A stretch of 64,000 nucleotides of DNA from a virus: the IMG/VR virus record IMGVR_UViG_3300033121_000981, positions 1 to 64,000 of that record. One strand, given 5' to 3'. The position numbers and the translations under genes were made by a program. The notes beneath the pieces were generated by a model. It was not told the DNA's origin. It saw only the letters and a list, made by a program, of their open reading frames with translations, and ran no database searches. Numbering within the stretch: position 1 is the stretch's first letter; each line of letters begins with the position of its first letter. Below, piece after piece: positions 2,422 to 10,349 of the stretch.

Positions 2422-2482
2422 ATGCATGGCCTATAATCAATTTAAATTAACTATGTAATACCAACACATCACTTATGTTAAA

Positions 2483-2503
2483 AGAGGGCCGTATGAGCCC
2501 TCT
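2483..2503. terminator. hairpin AGAGGGC-N7-GCCCTCT between convergent genes; probable bidirectional terminator
   Basis: 7-bp GC-rich stem, T-run on the minus-strand side. Confidence 0.4.
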
Positions 2504-2512
2504 AATACGTTT

Positions 2513-3151
2513 CTATAGGCATTTATATTGTTCTTGCTTTGTATTATATTCTAATTCGTATTTATCTAAACTATCTTTCCATTGTTTAATATTCCTAACT
2601 ACTGATGTCATAGGAAGAGAATATTTATCTGCAATAGCTTCGTATCCAAAACCGTTTACCCTATCCTCACACATAGCTCTCATTATTTCTGGTGTTATTT
2701 TAGGAGGACGACCAAACAGCTTCCCTTCAGCCTTAGCTCTAGCTAATCCAGAGTTAGTACGCTCAATAATAATATTACGTTCTAGCTCCGCAGCAGCAGC
2801 CATTACAGTAATAATCATTTTACCCATCGAACTAGTAAGGTCAATACCATCAAATTGTAATACTCTAAGTTTAATCTTGAGACGTTTAAACTCATCGATA
2901 GTGTGCAAAATATCTGAAGCTGTACGTCCAAGCCTGTCTACCATTGTACATATGCAAGTGTCTCCAGCCTTAGCTTTCTCCATCATGGATGAGAAAGCAG
3001 GGCGTTCTAAAGCTTTAATGGAACCTGAAACACCCTCTTCAGCATACCATTCATCTACAGCATACCCTGCATTCGTAATTTCTAATTTTTGATTTTCTGT
3101 AGTTTGACCTTTTTTAGTTGTGCTGACGCGCAGGTATGCAAATATTGTCAT
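2513..3151 (-). CDS. small serine recombinase (resolvase/invertase family) with C-terminal HTH
   Basis: N-terminal YLRVSTxxQ catalytic-serine motif, DRLGR, 212 aa. Confidence 0.9.
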   Translation of the reverse strand: MTIFAYLRVSTTKKGQTTENQKLEITNAGYAVDEWYAEEGVSGSIKALERPAFSSMMEKAKAGDTCICTMVDRLGRTASDILHTIDEFKRLKIKLRVLQFDGIDLTSSMGKMIITVMAAAAELERNIIIERTNSGLARAKAEGKLFGRPPKITPEIMRAMCEDRVNGFGYEAIADKYSLPMTSVVRNIKQWKDSLDKYELEYNTKQEQYKCL

Positions 3152-3182
3152 GGAGTATTCCTATACATGTTTTATTCTGAAG

Positions 3183-3217
3183 ACATAATTGTACGAATAA
3201 TAGAATATTTCGTCAAT
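3183..3217 (-). promoter_or_regulatory. sigma70-like promoter for the recombinase gene, TTGACG-17-TACAAT
   Basis: read on minus strand; a 14-bp palindrome TTTTTTATAAAAAA lies just upstream at 3229-3242. Confidence 0.4.
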
Positions 3218-3336
3218 ATTTTTTATAAAAAATTTATTTTTAATTTCACATTTTTATTATTTTGCAGAAATTGCCATATAGAAAATATCGATAAGCTCAT
3301 AAATTTTCTTGTGGATAATTATAAATAGCTAATTTT

Positions 3337-3352
3337 GCTTAATTTTTGTGCA
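3337..3352. repeat. direct repeat GCTTAATTTTTGTGCA, copy 1
   Basis: exact 16-mer repeated at 3718-3733. Confidence 0.6.
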
Positions 3353-3717
3353 GGATATACTTTTGTGTTGTTTTTTGGAAATAACGCTGCAAAGTCGTCT
3401 GCGGGGCTTAATAGGGTTTTCGGGGTTGATTTTAGACTTTTATATACAGCAAAATATCTAGGTTGTCAAGTGTTTTCTTTCACTTTTAACGATTATTTTG
3501 CTTGTAAGTGGTTGATTTACAACACTTTACCGAAAACAACCGTTTGTGGTAATGATTTAAAGTAACTTTTGATTGAATTTGTAAGGTATACCTATGTCAG
3601 AATGCTTCATAGGCTTTATTAGAGCGCTTACAGTGAATTATTTTGTGTTGGTAATAGGAGGGTACGCTTAAATGTAAAAACGCTGCTATGAGGCTGTAAT
3701 TGATTTCTATTAGAAGT

Positions 3718-3774
3718 GCTTAATTTTTGTGCAACTTGTAAAATTACAAGTAATTATTGTATCCTGTAGGATAC
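3718..3774. repeat. direct repeat copy 2 followed by two palindromes (CTTGTAAAATTACAAG and GTATCCTGTAGGATAC)
   Basis: seen directly; possible recombinase or regulator binding sites. Confidence 0.5.
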
Positions 3775-4060
3775 AGAAGAGAAGCACGCATGAAAACGTC
3801 GCCACTATTAGTTATCATATATGCTCTTATACACTACATATAGTAACGCATACACAAAATACTACTAGATATAGTGATATCACATATAATATGCAGTAAC
3901 ATTCATTAGCACTATACAAGCATTGGACACAACATCGGACACATGCACATATAACACACATCTTAACATACATATTCTTACGCATTATCATATAAACGAT
4001 ACCCTTACCTATAATTATTAGTATGTTATAAATGACGCGCAGATCGTATATGAATAGCAA

Positions 4061-4100
4061 TAAAAAAAAATACCCGCACAAGGCGGGCTATTCTTCTTTT
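4061..4100. terminator. intrinsic terminator, A9-CCCGC-acaag-GCGGG-T-rich; strongest on the minus strand
   Basis: GC hairpin flanked by A9 and TTCTTCTTTT. Confidence 0.6.
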
Positions 4101-5176: not shown

Positions 5177-5257
5177 TAAACAATATAGATAGTATATACA
5201 CGTTTATTTATTAAATCAAGAATTATTTTCACTTTTTAAAATTGCTTCTAAATCAAT
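5177..5257. repeat. about 80-bp direct repeat, left copy flanking the GC-rich island; includes a duplicated 3' end of gene 5793-6230 (..LEAILKSENNS)
   Basis: about 93 percent identical to 5753-5834. Confidence 0.7.
5191..5219 (-). promoter_or_regulatory. early promoter cassette copy 1, TTGATT-17-TATACT
   Basis: one of five near-identical cassettes ATATACACGTTTATTTAATAAATCAAG. Confidence 0.6.
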
Positions 5258-5406
5258 AATTTTCATTTTATAATCCTTTTATAAGTTAATTAATAAAACA
5301 ATATCAAACAAATTTACGCCAACCATTTTTACAACGTTTGTCTCGTTTAAATCCAAGTTTTGCAGCTGCTATGATGACCAGTGCATCAAATTCAGGGAGT
5401 GGCGGT

Positions 5407-5619
5407 TCATGCTTGCACCACCTTCGCAAAGTTCGGCACGGTGCCTGGAACAAACCCAGCGACACGGAAAGAATGAAAACCGGCGGCACTTGCGGCGGCT
5501 TTCACCTTTTCGATGTTTTTGGCGGCTTTGTCAGTCACGGGGAAGCAAGCGAGTAAATCTTCCATATAGTCGCGGGTTTCGCCGCGCTTCAGTCCATAAA
5601 TGAGAATTTCGGGTTTCAT
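5407..5619 (-). CDS. moron ORF in GC-rich island, 70 aa; the open frame continues in a second frame (5304-5489), so possibly a frameshifted or longer gene
   Basis: GC-rich third codon positions unlike the rest of the phage; RBS AAGGA; own consensus promoter upstream. Confidence 0.5.
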   Translation of the reverse strand: MKPEILIYGLKRGETRDYMEDLLACFPVTDKAAKNIEKVKAAASAAGFHSFRVAGFVPGTVPNFAKVVQA

Positions 5620-5658
5620 GTGTCAGTCCTTTACGTTTACGGGTTATTGATAGGTTCT

Positions 5659-5686
5659 ATTATAACACAGTGGGTTTAATTGTCAA
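5659..5686 (-). promoter_or_regulatory. consensus sigma70 promoter TTGACA-16-TGtTATAAT inside the GC-rich island
   Basis: perfect -35 and extended -10, read on minus strand, about 40 nt upstream of the island ORF. Confidence 0.6.
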
Positions 5687-5752
5687 GCACTTTTTGACAC
5701 ACTGGGTAAAATTCCCAACTTGTACGCAAAAATCGCGGCGTCCCGTTCTTCT

Positions 5753-5834
5753 TTAAACAATATAACTATTATATACACGTTTATTTAATAAATCAAGAAT
5801 TATTTTCACTTTTTAAAATTGCTTCTAAATCGAT
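5753..5834. repeat. about 80-bp direct repeat, right copy flanking the GC-rich island; contains early promoter copy 2 (TTGATT-17-TATAAT at 5768-5796)
   Basis: matches 5177-5257. Confidence 0.7.
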
Positions 5835-6810: not shown

Positions 6811-6846
6811 TTCATTACCTTTCTAATTAATATAAACAATATAGAT

Positions 6847-6875
6847 AGTATATACACGTTTATTTAATAAATCAA
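6847..6875 (-). promoter_or_regulatory. early promoter cassette copy 3, TTGATT-17-TATACT
   Basis: sequence match to the other copies. Confidence 0.6.
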
Positions 6876-7109
6876 GTATTTTCTTTATAAATTCCTTTAT
6901 CATTCTCATTTTTCCATTCCTTGCAAAAAAGCCTTGACAAACTTTTAAATTGCACTATTCCAGAATGTTTTGTGATGACAACATAATAAGCACCTTGTTT
7001 TTTAATTTCGTAGAATTCTTTATTGTCAAGCATTTTCTTTTCCTAAATTTACATTATTTAATACTAAAATTCGATAATTTTTCGCAGTAATTCTGCGCGT
7101 GTTTTTGTT

Positions 7110-8215: not shown

Positions 8216-8244
8216 ATTATATACACTTTTATTTATTTTGTAAA
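8216..8244 (-). promoter_or_regulatory. early promoter cassette copy 4, TTTACA-17-TATAAT
   Basis: sequence match. Confidence 0.55.
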
Positions 8245-8786
8245 GAATTATTAACATAATATAAAGCATCCCCATTTTGTTTTACAGCTTCTAAACATAT
8301 TTCTTCTGTTTGTTCCTTAACATACCATAAAGCATAACCATTTTGTTTAACAGCTGCTAAACATATTTCTTCTGTTTGTTCCTTAACATACCATAAAGCA
8401 TAACCATTTTGTTTAACAGCTGCTAAACATATTTCTTCTGTTTGTTCCTTAACATCCTTTAAAGCATAACCGTTTTGTTTTACAGCTTCTAAACATATTT
8501 CTTCTGTTTGTTCCTTAACATGCTCTAAAGCATAACCGTTTTGTTTTACAGCTTCTAAACATATTTCTTCTGTTTGTTCCTTGACATCCTTTAAAGCATA
8601 ACCATTTCGTTTAACAGCTTCTAAACATATTTCTTCTGTTTGTTCCTTAACACACTCTAAAGCATATCCGTTTTGTCTAACAGCTGCTAAACATATTTCT
8701 TCTGTTTGATTCTCAACATACTTTAAAGCAAACCCCTCTTGTTTAACAGCTGCTAAAGCCTCTTGTTCATTAGTGAAATATTTCAT
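8229..8786 (-). CDS. DUF4116-type tandem-repeat protein, about 8 x 20-aa repeats (EQTEEICLEAVKQNGYALKDVK)
   Basis: obvious 20-aa periodicity; 60-bp DNA repeats. Confidence 0.8.
   Translation of the reverse strand: MKYFTNEQEALAAVKQEGFALKYVENQTEEICLAAVRQNGYALECVKEQTEEICLEAVKRNGYALKDVKEQTEEICLEAVKQNGYALEHVKEQTEEICLEAVKQNGYALKDVKEQTEEICLAAVKQNGYALWYVKEQTEEICLAAVKQNGYALWYVKEQTEEICLEAVKQNGDALYYVNNSLQNK
8270..8770. repeat. about 8 tandem copies of a 60-bp unit, coding and in frame, inside CDS 8229-8786
   Basis: near-identical copies, e.g. TTGTTCCTTAACATACCATAAAGCATAACCATTTTGTTTAACAGCTGCTAAACATATTTCTTCTG. Confidence 0.8.
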
Positions 8787-8822
8787 TTTTTAACATTCCC
8801 GTTTAAATTAAACAACACAAGT

Positions 8823-8851
8823 ATTATATACACGTTTATTTAATAAATCAA
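8823..8851 (-). promoter_or_regulatory. early promoter cassette copy 5, TTGATT-17-TATAAT
   Basis: sequence match. Confidence 0.6.
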
Positions 8852-9267
8852 GCATTATTCAATTTATTTCTATGTTTATGAGAAGCACCAATTTTAGCCG
8901 CGCACATTGTCACAGCTGCTACAGTGCGCCCCAATTGTCTAGCACACTCAACCCTGCCAAGAATTTTATAATTTCCTTTCAAGAAAATTATCTCATCATC
9001 TTTCCATTTTGTGCTATTTGTTAAATTAACAAAATTTTGACATTTTCCTGCTTTTCGCATCGCATTGCGCTGGTTTGTTAATTTTTCAATCGCGCCAATT
9101 TGCATTAAATAATGTGGCAAATTATAACTAGAAAGCCAATTTTCTAGCATACTGATATCGGTGCGTAATAATTTAGCAGCGTGCTCATTGCTGTATTCAA
9201 TTTCAGAAATTAATTTTTGAAGCTTTTTACTAAAATCTATCATTTCATTTTCCTTTGTTTTGTCCAA
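8848..9267 (-). CDS. hypothetical protein, possible C-terminal HTH
   Basis: ORF track. Confidence 0.5.
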   Translation of the reverse strand: MDKTKENEMIDFSKKLQKLISEIEYSNEHAAKLLRTDISMLENWLSSYNLPHYLMQIGAIEKLTNQRNAMRKAGKCQNFVNLTNSTKWKDDEIIFLKGNYKILGRVECARQLGRTVAAVTMCAAKIGASHKHRNKLNNA

Positions 9268-9455: not shown

Positions 9456-9780
9456 TTTTAGTTCCTTTCAAAATTAATTAATAGAGTAGATATTATTACA
9501 TACAGAATAAATATGTACAACATATTTTTAAGAATTTATGAAAATAATTTATAAAATGTTATCAATAAATACATAAAACGATTTAAACGGCCCATATTCA
9601 ATTTAAATATTTACCCTAACCCTACTATTAAATTTATTTTTAAATCGATTATAGAGCGTTTTGACAAGCCTATTTTAAGTATGTATTGTATAAATTACAT
9701 TTAATAATTTTCTTGACAAAATGCGAAATATATGATGCATGCAAACTATAAGCGTGTGTCCCGCCAGGGACCATGCAAAC

Positions 9781-9810
9781 TATAAAAATAGTTTACACAA
9801 ATTTAAAATT
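9781..9810 (+). promoter_or_regulatory. sigma70-like promoter TTTACA-18-TATAAT in a non-coding region
   Basis: no plus-strand ORF downstream; followed by hairpins. Confidence 0.5.
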
Positions 9811-9884
9811 GTGTGTATAATAGCTGCATTGATACAACAAACTATCAATATGACAATTTAAGCAGCGACGAGAGGCGCAACCCT

Positions 9885-9914
9885 GCTGGGTGCGCTTGAC
9901 TACAATCTTTAGCG
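9885..9914 (+). promoter_or_regulatory. second tandem promoter, TTGACT-18-TATAAA
   Basis: seen directly. Confidence 0.5.
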
Positions 9915-10149
9915 TTAAGTATAAATTTAATGTTATTTTTTGAATGTAAGTAGCCCTTGCGCGTAATATTTATACGTTGATTTTTACGTAGCTACTGTTA
10001 CGCCTAAAATTATTTTATTGCTTTATTAGCAAGATATTGTAATATCGATAATATTAATAAATTATTAATGTTTCATTTTTGGAAACGTTTTTGCTTATTT
10101 TGATATTACTAAATTTGGATACCAAAAATCCTATAAGAAGGTTTAAAAA

Positions 10150-10330
10150 ATTCGGGTGAAATCTAGGAAATTCCAAATTCCTAGAAATGCTGAATTCCAA
10201 AATTCAAAATGGTAAATTTTCTTAAAATTTAAATTTATGAAAAGCCACATAATGTAAAATTCCGTGGCCAAATTTGGAATTATTTTCAAATCCTTGTTTG
10301 GATTTCATTTTTAAATTATTTAAAATTCCA
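10150..10330. repeat. iteron-like repeats of AAATTCCAAA (four or more copies) plus palindromes CCAAATTTGG and TCAAATCCTTGTTTGGATTTCA
   Basis: seen directly; AT-rich region. Confidence 0.5.
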
Positions 10331-10349
10331 AAATTAATATTTAGCAAAT

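What the first reader, a model, noticed from the sequence alone, without database searches (positions are those of the whole stretch)
3337..3774. Direct 16-bp repeat pair plus two perfect palindromes beside the recombinase
GCTTAATTTTTGTGCA occurs at 3337-3352 and 3718-3733. The second copy is followed by CTTGTAAAATTACAAG (3735-3750) and GTATCCTGTAGGATAC (3759-3774), whereas the first is followed directly by AGGATATAC. This reads as if one site carries an insertion between its half-sites. These are candidate crossover or accessory sites for the adjacent serine recombinase, or operators for an unknown repressor. They would bracket about 380 bp that could be deleted or inverted.
Basis: seen in the sequence. 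Interest (0 to 1): 0.5.

Follow-up and report, generated by a model that had tools for sequence, protein, structure and literature searches.

The report
Paired 17-bp sites in phage control region
Two identical 17-bp sequences and two short inverted repeats lie in a conserved untranslated control region upstream of a phage serine recombinase; they look like lineage-specific protein-binding or promoter-operator elements rather than the recombinase's crossover sites, so the finding is fairly ordinary.

Summary
The repeat is real. TGCTTAATTTTTGTGCA (17 bp, not 16) occurs exactly twice in 64 kb, at 3336-3352 and 3717-3733, which is unlikely by chance (p about 5e-4 within the intergenic region). The two "perfect palindromes" are really 18-bp dyads: 8-bp arms around non-complementary AA and GT centres.

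The window is an uncultured tailed phage. The sites lie in a 0.9-kb untranslated region upstream of a small serine recombinase, which defines a clade found on 82-94 kb viral contigs.

Strain variants (96-98% identical) keep both 17-mers and both dyads, and none shows a deletion or inversion. The bases after copy 1 that suggested a split half-site are not conserved.

A relative with a 70% identical recombinase and a near-identical DNA-recognition helix lacks the 17-mer and both dyads. It does keep a consensus DnaA box and a conserved core between the two copies.

The motif is not scattered, is not part of a promoter class, resembles no hix/gix/res site and forms no conserved RNA structure.

Best reading (confidence 0.35): lineage-specific operator-type sites, with copy 2 plus dyad 1 forming a sigma-70-like promoter/operator. 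Recombinase crossover sites: about 0.15.

The parts
2513..3151 (-). Small serine recombinase, 212 aa
   Evidence: PF00239 at E=6.6e-38 and phrog_125 'DNA invertase'. It scores equally against gamma-delta resolvase and Gin invertase structures. No NCBIfam cutoff is reached. About 1000 homologues exist at 50-70% identity, many on 82-94 kb contigs.
3188..3216 (-). Likely promoter of the recombinase gene (TTGACG-17-TACAAT)
   Evidence: Consensus scan. A TTGACA/TTGCAC-type hexamer sits at a similar distance from the ATG in relatives, seen by reading the sequences. Inferred, not shown.
3218..3233 (.). Perfect 16-bp A/T palindrome ATTTTTTATAAAAAAT
   Evidence: It is low-complexity, and its significance is unknown.
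3310..3318 (-). Consensus DnaA box TTATCCACA
   Evidence: It is conserved between the window and L032, with substitutions at 3308, 3309 and 3319 directly flanking it. A perfect box sits at a similar distance and in the same orientation in L034, and three lie in a cluster in L036.
3336..3352 (+). 17-mer copy 1, TGCTTAATTTTTGTGCA
   Evidence: There are no substitutions against L032/L033, while the flanks change at 3332 and 3353/3354. The aligned sequence in the 70% relative L034 matches at only 10 of 17 positions.
3363..3542 (.). Conserved noncoding core. Boxes: TGGAAATA 3376-3383, GGGGCTTAA 3403-3411, AAAATATCTAG 3451-3461, TTGTCAA 3463-3469.
   Evidence: 0 substitutions in 180 nt against L032/L033, where the flanks differ by 5-40%. 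The boxes and their 48-49 nt spacing are kept in relatives with 47-70% identical recombinases. It is not coding, because L034 has an in-frame stop. RNAalifold finds no shared RNA structure (0 pairs).
3717..3733 (+). 17-mer copy 2
   Evidence: It is conserved in L032 and absent from L034.
3716..3744 (+). Putative sigma-70-like promoter P2: GTGCTT, 17 nt, TAAAAT
   Evidence: Read from the sequence. The -35 is weak, so the scan does not list it. L034 has TTGAGT-16-AATAAT at the homologous place, overlapping its own dyad. Inferred.
3734..3751 (.). Dyad 1: ACTTGTAA-AA-TTACAAGT, overlapping the -10 hexamer of P2
   Evidence: It is conserved in L032. In L034 a different dyad, CTAATAA-TT-TTATTAG, occupies the same place.
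3758..3775 (.). Dyad 2: TGTATCCT-GT-AGGATACA. It is either a second operator or a 5' stem-loop of a P2 transcript.
   Evidence: It is conserved in L032, although the spacer to dyad 1 differs by 1 nt. It has no counterpart in L034.
3812..4065 (+). G-poor, untranslated, hypervariable distal segment
   Evidence: Composition. Positions 3812-3860 differ from L032 at 15 substitutions and 5 indel columns in 49 nt. The L032 scaffold gap covers 3946-4065. L165, an identical strain, ends at 4066, and three contigs of the 70% relative start at about the equivalent of 3830.
4072..4088 (.). Bidirectional intrinsic terminator closing the region
   Evidence: It is conserved in L032.

Best explanation
The two 17-mers are a genuine, lineage-specific pair of identical recognition sites for a sequence-specific DNA-binding protein. 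That protein is most likely a dimeric regulator rather than the recombinase.

The sites sit inside a roughly 0.9-kb untranslated control region that an uncultured family of tailed phages keeps upstream of a conserved small serine recombinase.

Copy 2 directly abuts a compact 59-bp module: 17-mer, 18-bp dyad, 6 bp, 18-bp dyad. GTGCTT in the 17-mer lies 17 nt upstream of a TAAAAT hexamer inside dyad 1. I therefore read the module as a sigma-70-type promoter with an overlapping operator. It would fire rightwards through dyad 2 (a second operator or a 5' hairpin) into a G-poor untranslated stretch that ends at the terminator at 4072-4088.

Copy 1 lies 17 nt from a consensus DnaA box and 10 nt before the family-conserved core. 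One protein occupying both copies could bridge the 381 bp and loop out the core, as paired operators do in the lac, gal and deo systems.

Shown here:
- the repeat is exact and non-random;
- its edges are sharp;
- it is conserved in strain variants;
- it is absent from a relative with the same recombinase recognition helix;
- promoter-like hexamers are present;
- there is no conserved RNA structure;
- no rearranged variants were found.

Inferred: protein binding, the identity of the binder, promoter activity and looping.
For: - Exact 17-mer pair, p about 5e-4 in the region and 1.3% per window.
- Identity stops abruptly at both ends of the 17-mer, and the flanks are unrelated.
- The 17-mer has a partial dyad skeleton, TGC-N2-AA-N3-TT-N2-GCA, about a central base pair. 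This is the layout of 17-bp lambda-type operators (sequence).
- Both copies have 0 substitutions against the 96% variant, while the flanks of copy 1 change at 3332 and 3353/3354.
- Copy 2, both dyads and the next 36 nt form a block free of substitutions.
- TAAAAT sits inside dyad 1, 17 nt from GTGCTT. The 70% relative has a different dyad and a TTGAGT-16-AATAAT promoter-like pair at the same place, as expected for an operator co-evolving with its binder.
- The motif is unique to this region, so it is not a generic promoter class.
- There is no Rfam family and no conserved fold.
Against: - No candidate regulator has been identified. The neighbouring small ORFs have no family matches.
- The -35 of P2 is weak, at 2 of 6 matches.
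- At copy 1 the -10-like TATACT has a 15-nt spacer and is lost in the variants, so the two copies do not form equivalent promoters.
- With about 8-11% local divergence, two unchanged 17-mers are only mildly surprising (p about 0.06).
- 381 bp is not an integral number of helical turns.
- There are no expression or binding data.
Confidence: 0.35

Rival explanations
1. Recombination sites of the adjacent serine recombinase. The directly repeated 17-mers, with the dyads as crossover or accessory subsites, would allow resolution or deletion of the 381-bp segment, or resolution of genome multimers.
For: - The sites lie near a catalytically intact small serine recombinase; the family invariants include R8, S10, D72, R73 and R76.
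- Both dyads have a 2-bp non-palindromic centre, the geometry of serine recombinase crossover sites.
- The region lies where two transcription blocks converge, a place where a dimer-resolution site would be plausible.
- Assemblies repeatedly break nearby.
Against: - No deletion or inversion appears in L032 or L033, and relatives show no inverted blocks.
- The 17-mer, dyad 1 and dyad 2 share no half-site, unlike the three subsites of a res site.
- The 8-bp arms and the 17-bp length are shorter than any known dimer site (25-34 bp).
- There is no hix/gix-like core above chance and no 26-bp inverted pair in the window.
- The recognition helix is almost identical in the 70% relative (PMTSVVRNI against PLTTVVRNI), yet none of the three sequences is conserved there.
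- Deletion would remove the family's most conserved noncoding element.
- The assembly breaks map to the G-poor distal segment, not to the 17-mers.
Confidence: 0.15
2. Iteron-like or other cis-acting repeats within a multifunctional untranslated 'repeat region'. The region would serve replication initiation, DNA entry or packaging, comparable in anatomy to the T5 terminal-repeat untranslated regions or to iteron-type origins.
For: - A consensus DnaA box lies 17 nt from copy 1, with substitutions on both of its edges.
- Perfect DnaA boxes occur in L034, and a cluster of three in L036.
- An A/T palindrome and phased T-tracts lie next to it.
- Relatives carry their own repeat arrays: a 16-mer x3 and a 19-mer x2 in L146, and a CTGTAGGGC family in L036.
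- HNH endonuclease genes are inserted beside the recombinase in several relatives, as in T5.
- T5 repeat regions combine direct repeats, inverted repeats, palindromes and DnaA boxes (bioRxiv 10.1101/866236).
- Contig ends recur in the distal segment.
Against: - There are only two copies, 381 bp apart, not a tandem array.
- No Rep-type initiator gene is adjacent.
- There is one consensus DnaA box here, not a structured set.
- The DnaA-box cluster of L036 is an indel relative to its 92% relative L146, so it is dispensable.
- More distant family members have short upstream regions without these features.
- The region is a transcriptional convergence point, and the local GC-skew sign is that of a terminus rather than an origin.
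Confidence: 0.2
3. A non-functional remnant. The 17-bp identity would be left over from a local duplication, slippage or gene-conversion event in T-rich DNA, and the dyads would be fortuitous.
For: - The motif is T-rich, and copy 1 lies in a zone of phased TTTTGC-like tracts seen in all relatives.
- It is not conserved beyond the closest variants.
- Other exact pairs of 17-21 nt exist in the window.
- Short repeats at chance level are common in the relatives' regions.
Against: - The probability of the pair is about 5e-4 in the region.
- The edges are sharp and the flanks are unrelated.
- No substitutions occur in either copy, while adjacent bases changed.
- Two 8+2+8 dyads immediately abut copy 2 inside a conserved block.
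Confidence: 0.15
4. RNA-level elements. The bracketed region or the stretch after copy 2 would encode noncoding RNA, with the dyads acting as RNA hairpins and the 17-mers as parts of two RNA genes.
For: - Folding of 3360-3545 gives z about -2.5.
- Dyad 2 would form a 5' hairpin on a P2 transcript.
- A terminator closes the region.
- 3363-3542 is 100% conserved among the variants.
Against: - There is no Rfam match even at E up to 10.
- The z-scores are equal on both strands.
- The whole region does not fold better than shuffles (z -0.8 and -1.2).
- RNAalifold finds no shared pairs across five diverged copies.
- Conservation is in short boxes with fixed spacing, not in helices.
Confidence: 0.1

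Closest known systems
Paired or auxiliary operators with DNA looping (lac O1-O2, gal OE-OI, deo) and 17-bp lambda-type operators
   Same: The site is 17 bp with partial two-fold symmetry about a central base pair. Two identical copies lie a few hundred bp apart. One copy adjoins a promoter-like -10 hexamer that a dyad overlaps. The sequence is lineage-specific, as expected for an operator co-evolving with its repressor.
   Different: No repressor gene has been identified. There is no tandem operator set. Promoter activity is unproven. The spacing is not an integral number of helical turns.
Tn3/gamma-delta res sites (resolvase subsites I-III)
   Same: The sites lie upstream of a small serine recombinase gene. 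They are short dyads with a 2-bp centre. Autoregulation by binding in the promoter region is a known theme.
   Different: A res site is about 115-120 bp, sits next to the gene, and consists of three dyads of one shared 12-bp half-site. Here the three elements share no half-site. They lie 184-624 nt from the start codon, have 8-bp arms, and are absent from a relative with the same recognition helix.
Hin/Gin/Cin/Pin inversion systems (hix/gix sites plus a Fis-bound enhancer)
   Same: The recombinase is about 42% identical to phage Pin/Gin-type invertases. It is phage-encoded.
   Different: The repeats are direct, not inverted. There is no 26-bp inverted pair and no AAACC-NN-GGTTT-like core above chance. 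No tail-fibre gene is adjacent. The protein is equally similar to resolvases.
Untranslated repeat regions of the phage T5 terminal repeat (injection stop signal region; Davison, bioRxiv 10.1101/866236)
   Same: This is a large, conserved, untranslated block in a virulent-looking phage next to early genes. It holds direct repeats, inverted repeats, a palindrome and a consensus DnaA box. Relatives have HNH endonuclease insertions in the same neighbourhood.
   Different: There is no sequence similarity. T5 has eight DnaA boxes in fixed pairs and 131-bp inverted repeats, whereas here there is one box and a pair of 17-mers. It is not known whether this region lies in a terminal repeat. T5 has no associated recombinase.
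Iteron-type origins (RK2 17-bp iterons; pSC101 iterons with inverted repeats)
   Same: A 17-bp direct repeat lies near a DnaA box and an A/T-rich tract, with inverted repeats close by.
   Different: There are only two copies and they are not tandem. No Rep gene is adjacent. The dyad arms are unrelated to the repeat.

Membership tests
res site of a Tn3/gamma-delta-type resolvase | Three dimer-binding subsites built from one shared imperfect 12-bp half-site | tested here: not met
   The 17-mer halves (TGCTTAAT / TGCACAAA), the dyad 1 arm (ACTTGTAA) and the dyad 2 arm (TGTATCCT) share no consensus.
res site of a Tn3/gamma-delta-type resolvase | A compact site of about 115-120 bp immediately upstream of the recombinase gene, overlapping its promoter | tested here: not met
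   The elements lie 184-624 nt from the start codon, beyond the promoter-like site at 3188-3216.
res site of a Tn3/gamma-delta-type resolvase | Sites co-vary with the recombinase's DNA-binding domain, so they are conserved where the recognition helix is conserved | tested here: not met
   The recognition helix is PMTSVVRNI here and PLTTVVRNI in P0002. The 17-mer and both dyads are absent from L034.
hix/gix-type invertase crossover sites | Two 26-bp sites in inverted orientation flanking an invertible segment | tested here: not met
   The 17-mers are direct repeats. No convincing inverted pair of 20 nt or more exists in the window. Relatives show no inverted blocks.
hix/gix-type invertase crossover sites | A core resembling AAACC-NN-GGTTT | tested here: not met
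   35 matches at 2 or fewer mismatches against 36.5 expected, and none in a plausible site.
hix/gix-type invertase crossover sites | Population heterogeneity, with both orientations or the deletion product present | tested here: inconclusive
   Five variant contigs were examined and none is rearranged at the 17-mers. Raw reads could not be inspected.
Operator pair of a phage or host repressor | Repeated identical or near-identical sites with dyad symmetry | tested here: met
   Two exact copies. The skeleton TGC-N2-AA-N3-TT-N2-GCA has 5 of 8 symmetric pairs.
Operator pair of a phage or host repressor | Overlap with, or adjacency to, a promoter | tested here: inconclusive
   GTGCTT-17-TAAAAT occurs at copy 2 and dyad 1. 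The -35 is weak and the hexamer pair is not listed by the scan. No transcript data are available.
Operator pair of a phage or host repressor | A cognate DNA-binding protein that binds the sites | not testable with these tools
   The neighbouring ORFs have no family matches. Binding needs an experiment.
Iteron-type replication origin | A tandem array of at least 3 iterons next to a DnaA box and an A/T-rich unwinding element, with an adjacent rep gene | tested here: not met
   A DnaA box (3310-3318) and an A/T tract are present. However, there are only two copies 381 bp apart, and no rep gene is adjacent.
T5-type untranslated repeat region (iss) | A conserved set of paired DnaA boxes within long inverted repeats, located in the terminal repeat | tested here: not met
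   There is one consensus box and no long inverted repeats. Terminal-repeat status cannot be tested. The resemblance is anatomical only.
Structured noncoding RNA | A conserved secondary structure with covariation, or a match to a curated family | tested here: not met
   No Rfam match. RNAalifold finds 0 pairs across 5 relatives. Whole-region folds are not better than shuffles.

The most novel reading that the evidence does not exclude
The conserved boxes, the clade-specific serine recombinase and the adjoining G-poor hypervariable segment together form a site-specific recombination locus in a family of virulent-looking phages. It would act either as a dimer- or concatemer-resolution site at the point where two early transcription blocks converge, or as a device that exchanges or varies a noncoding cassette. 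That would explain the abrupt loss of homology between 92-96% relatives and the recurrent assembly breaks. In this reading the 17-mers and dyads are lineage-specific accessory sites.
Probability: 0.1. Interest if true: 0.65.

Novelty: new member of a known kind. Interest (0 to 1): 0.3.

Why it matters
On the preferred reading, this is one more example of repeated operator-type sites in a phage control region, with modest general consequence.

The context is more interesting than the finding itself. A small serine recombinase clade, with about 1000 homologues, occurs on 82-94 kb viral contigs. It is absent from cultured phages and from 185,579 bacterial genomes. In a subset of members it is linked to a conserved noncoding element, DnaA boxes and a hypervariable segment.

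What a conserved serine recombinase does in phages that show no sign of lysogeny or tail-fibre inversion is an open question. This locus could make that question testable.

Tried and rejected
- Common promoter element: rejected. The 17-mer, the dyads and the conserved boxes occur only here, and TGCTT-box/-10 pairs are at chance (10 found, 8.2 expected).
- Exact 17-mer in IMG/VR: 31 loci with one copy each, none related, so these are chance matches.
- Known RNA family, tRNA or structured RNA: none.
- Coding potential of 3335-3565: rejected, because L034 has an in-frame stop. The short ORF after ATG 3791 is frame-scrambled in L032.
- hix/gix-like cores and long inverted pairs: at chance.
- Second noncoding region 9456-10349 as a partner site: no similarity.
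- Additional operator-like copies at 9162 and 9337: both lie inside ORFs.
- Prophage or attP reading: no clade member occurs in representative bacterial genomes or in deposited phages.
- Inverted segments between close relatives: none.
- Pattern GGGGYYTA-N-AAAATATCTAG in IMG/VR: only the family contig plus three unrelated chance loci.
- JGI metagenome scan: mostly generic invertases, so uninformative.
- YTGTAR motif as a shared half-site: only about 2-fold enriched, with similar density in the coding flanks.
- 'Bracketing direct repeats' as a family feature: the L049 and L143 pairs are 11-mers at chance level.
- Minus-strand promoter TTGACA-17-TATATA at 3469-3441: present in the window and L034 but not in L047, L036 or L049, so it does not explain the conserved box.

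Full report
OBSERVATION. The sequences are at the stated coordinates. The exact repeat is 17 bp, one base longer than reported: TGCTTAATTTTTGTGCA at 3336-3352 and 3717-3733, same strand, 381 bp apart. No further copy with 2 or fewer mismatches exists in the 64 kb. An exact 17-mer pair within 500 nt arose in 1.3% of order-2 Markov simulations of the window, and in 0.045% of simulations of the intergenic region alone. So it is more than chance.

The two 'perfect palindromes' are not perfect. Both are 18-bp inverted repeats with 8-bp arms around a non-self-complementary dinucleotide: ACTTGTAA-AA-TTACAAGT (3734-3751) and TGTATCCT-GT-AGGATACA (3758-3775). Dyad 1 starts one base after 17-mer copy 2. 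The layout is 17-mer, 18-bp dyad, 6 bp, 18-bp dyad, which makes a compact 59-bp module.

CONTEXT. The window is a tailed phage of 34% G+C. It encodes a tape measure protein, DNA polymerase, primase/helicase, ribonucleotide reductase and ligases. Its nearest deposited relatives, judged by primase/helicase, are Pseudaeromonas, Pseudomonas and Acinetobacter phages of about 90-117 kb.

The recombinase (2513-3151, minus strand, 212 aa) has a Resolvase catalytic domain. It is about 42% identical to phage Pin/Gin-type invertases. It scores equally against gamma-delta resolvase and Gin structures and reaches no NCBIfam cutoff. It cannot therefore be called an invertase or a resolvase from sequence.

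It defines a clade of about 1000 homologues at 50-70% identity, of the same length and with a conserved C-terminal tail. Many sit on 82-94 kb contigs. No member occurs in deposited phages or in 185,579 representative bacterial genomes, so there is no sign of lysogeny.

The finding lies in a 936-nt stretch (3152-4087) without credible ORFs. This stretch runs from the recombinase promoter-like site (3188-3216) to a bidirectional terminator (4072-4088) that ends a minus-strand block of small early genes. Two transcription blocks converge on it.

COMPARATIVE EVIDENCE, CLOSE VARIANTS. Two contigs from other samples encode the identical recombinase. L032 is about 96% identical and spans the region. 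L033 is about 98% identical and ends at 3542. Neither shows a deletion or inversion.

Divergence between the window and L032 is mosaic:
- 3152-3335: 20 substitutions in 184 nt.
- 17-mer copy 1: 0 in 17 nt.
- 3353-3362: 4 in 10 nt.
- 3363-3542: 0 in 180 nt.
- 3543-3575: 5 substitutions plus an indel in 33 nt.
- 3576-3645: 1 in 70 nt.
- 3646-3716: 5 substitutions plus an indel in 71 nt.
- 17-mer copy 2: 0 in 17 nt.
- 3734-3811: 0 substitutions and two 1-nt indels.
- 3812-3860: 15 substitutions and 5 indel columns in 49 nt.
- 3861-3945: 0 in 85 nt.

Copy 1 is thus an island of identity with changes at 3332 and 3353/3354. Copy 2 belongs to a conserved block that also holds both dyads. The bases after copy 1 that suggested a half-site (GGATATAC) read TAATACAC in the variants. 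The 'site with an insertion' idea is not supported.

COMPARATIVE EVIDENCE, DIVERGED RELATIVES. The relative with a 70% identical recombinase (L034/L035/L149/L150) keeps homology to about 3373-3689. It lacks the 17-mer: 10 of 17 positions match at copy 1, and nothing aligns at copy 2. It also lacks both dyads. At the place of dyad 1 it has a different dyad, CTAATAA-TT-TTATTAG, overlapping a promoter-like TTGAGT-16-AATAAT.

The DNA-recognition helix of the two recombinases is almost the same: PMTSVVRNI against PLTTVVRNI. Proteins with the same recognition helix should bind similar half-sites. The turnover of the 17-mer and dyads therefore argues that they are not the recombinase's sites.

What is conserved is different. 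There is a consensus DnaA box: 3310-3318 here, flanked by substitutions on both edges in L032; at a similar position in L034; and three in a cluster in L036.

There is also an ordered set of boxes: TGGAAA, GGCGC, GG(G/T)GYTTAA, about 40 nt, then AAATATCT(AG). Their spacing of 48-49 nt is conserved in six relatives whose recombinases are 47-70% identical. In all six the boxes have the same orientation and lie 141-416 nt from the ATG. This core lies between the two 17-mers.

The core is not coding, since L034 has an in-frame stop. It shows no shared RNA structure: RNAalifold finds 0 pairs, and there is no Rfam match. It is best read as a DNA-level element. More distant clade members have short upstream regions without it.

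TESTS OF THE RECOMBINATION READING.
- The repeats are direct, whereas the closest characterised relatives are invertases that need inverted sites.
- No convincing long inverted pair exists in the window.
- hix/gix-like cores are at chance.
- The 17-mer halves and the arms of the two dyads share no half-site, unlike res subsites.
- The elements lie 184-624 nt from the start codon.
- No relative pair shows an inverted block.
- The second large noncoding region (9456-10349) is unrelated.

The 2-bp non-palindromic centres of both dyads are the one feature reminiscent of serine recombinase crossover sites.

TESTS OF OTHER READINGS. The motif is not a scattered promoter element. TGCTT-box plus -10 pairs are not enriched. 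Whole-region folds are not better than shuffles.

The anatomy is a large, conserved, untranslated block next to early genes, holding direct repeats, dyads, an A/T palindrome (3218-3233) and a DnaA box, with HNH endonuclease insertions in relatives. This resembles the untranslated repeat regions of the T5 terminal repeat (bioRxiv 10.1101/866236). The defining T5 features, eight paired DnaA boxes and 131-bp inverted repeats, are absent.

Relatives carry their own repeat arrays in this region: a 16-mer x3 and a 19-mer x2 in L146, and a CTGTAGGGC family in L036. The pairs that happen to bracket the core in L049 and L143 are at chance level.

MECHANISM PREFERRED. The 17-mers are identical, sharp-edged and partly dyad-symmetric about a central base pair (TGC-N2-AA-N3-TT-N2-GCA). 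These are properties of operator-type sites for a dimeric DNA-binding protein.

Copy 2 supplies GTGCTT 17 nt upstream of TAAAAT, and that hexamer lies inside dyad 1. A transcript from here would start near 3751, carry dyad 2 as a 5' hairpin or pass a second operator, and cross a G-poor untranslated stretch. It would then stop at the terminator.

Copy 1 sits between the DnaA box and the conserved core. A protein bound at both copies could loop out the core.

Binding, promoter activity and looping are all inferred. The binder is unknown, since the neighbouring ORFs have no family matches. I put this reading at 0.35. The alternatives are: a cis-acting repeat region for replication, entry or packaging, 0.2; recombinase sites, 0.15; a non-functional remnant, 0.15; and RNA elements, 0.1.

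UNEXPLAINED. The G-poor distal segment (about 3812-4065) repeatedly breaks assemblies:
- The L032 scaffold gap covers 3946-4065.
- L165, from another sample and 100% identical to the window, ends at 4066, the same base.
- L166 ends at 4092.
- Three contigs of the 70% relative, from three sequencing runs, all start at one base equivalent to about 3830.

Between 92-96% relatives this distal part is non-homologous or hypervariable, while the proximal blocks are identical. In-population heterogeneity, coverage dropout and physical DNA ends cannot be told apart without reads. This leaves room for the more novel reading that the recombinase acts in this region.

VERDICT. The crossover-site interpretation is disfavoured, and the operator alternative is viable. 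The finding itself is ordinary. The surrounding locus and the recombinase clade are moderately interesting.

Noticed in passing
window 5177-5258, 5767-5800, 6833-6880, 8822-8855: A repeat family of 28-43 nt recurs here. On the minus strand it reads CTTGATTTATTAAATAAACGTGTATATAATA, that is TTGATT-17-TATAAT. These are probably strong early promoters placed before successive small minus-strand genes.
   Followed up: partly
window 5259-5752: This is a G+C-rich island, about 0.5 against a 0.3 background. It is absent from the 96% variant L032, which has about 310 nt where the window has about 808 nt. Its ORFs have no Pfam match. It is possibly a recently acquired insertion.
   Followed up: partly
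window 3812-4065; L032 1939-2038; L165 end; L149/L150/L035 start: The G-poor untranslated segment is hypervariable between close relatives. It coincides with a scaffold gap and with contig ends in five assemblies. Two of them break at the same base (4066), and three contigs of the 70% relative start at one identical base.
   Followed up: partly
window 3310-3318; L034 497-505; L036 3176-3225: Consensus DnaA boxes (TTATCCACA) lie upstream of the recombinase in the closest relatives. The window's box is flanked by substitutions on both edges in L032. The triple cluster in L036 is an indel relative to its 92% relative L146.
   Followed up: partly
window 9456-10349: A second large ORF-free region contains TTGACA-type promoter-like sites and G+C-rich hairpin-like stretches (for example GTGTCCCGCCAGGGACCATGC). 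These may be small RNA genes. There is no Rfam match at gathering threshold.
   Followed up: no
window 8229-8786 (minus strand): A 185-aa ORF is built of tandem 66-bp (22-aa) repeats, EQTEEICLEAVKQNGYAL.
   Followed up: no
window 2513-3151 and proteins P0001-P0120: The recombinase belongs to a distinct clade of about 1000 homologues. They share a conserved C-terminal extension (W191, Y198, E201, Q208) beyond the helix-turn-helix region. They occur on 82-94 kb viral contigs spanning 30-53% G+C, but not in cultured phages or bacterial genomes. In some members the gene sits next to terminase/portal genes or to an HTH_23+HNH gene pair.
   Followed up: partly
window 52182 and 52563: Another exact 17-mer pair (TTTTAGCTTCTTCATCA) has the same 381-bp spacing. 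It lies inside the tape measure gene, so it is presumably an internal protein repeat, and the equal spacing is a coincidence.
   Followed up: no
window 2475-3092 (+): A 205-aa ORF lies antisense to the recombinase gene. It gives tblastn hits in relatives only because it mirrors the conserved recombinase coding sequence, so it is a shadow ORF.
   Followed up: partly
window 3663-3675: AGGAGG is followed 10 nt later by ATG-TAA, a start-stop minimal ORF, in the stretch between the conserved core and 17-mer copy 2. The Shine-Dalgarno-like sequence is altered in L032 (GGGAGGA).
   Followed up: no
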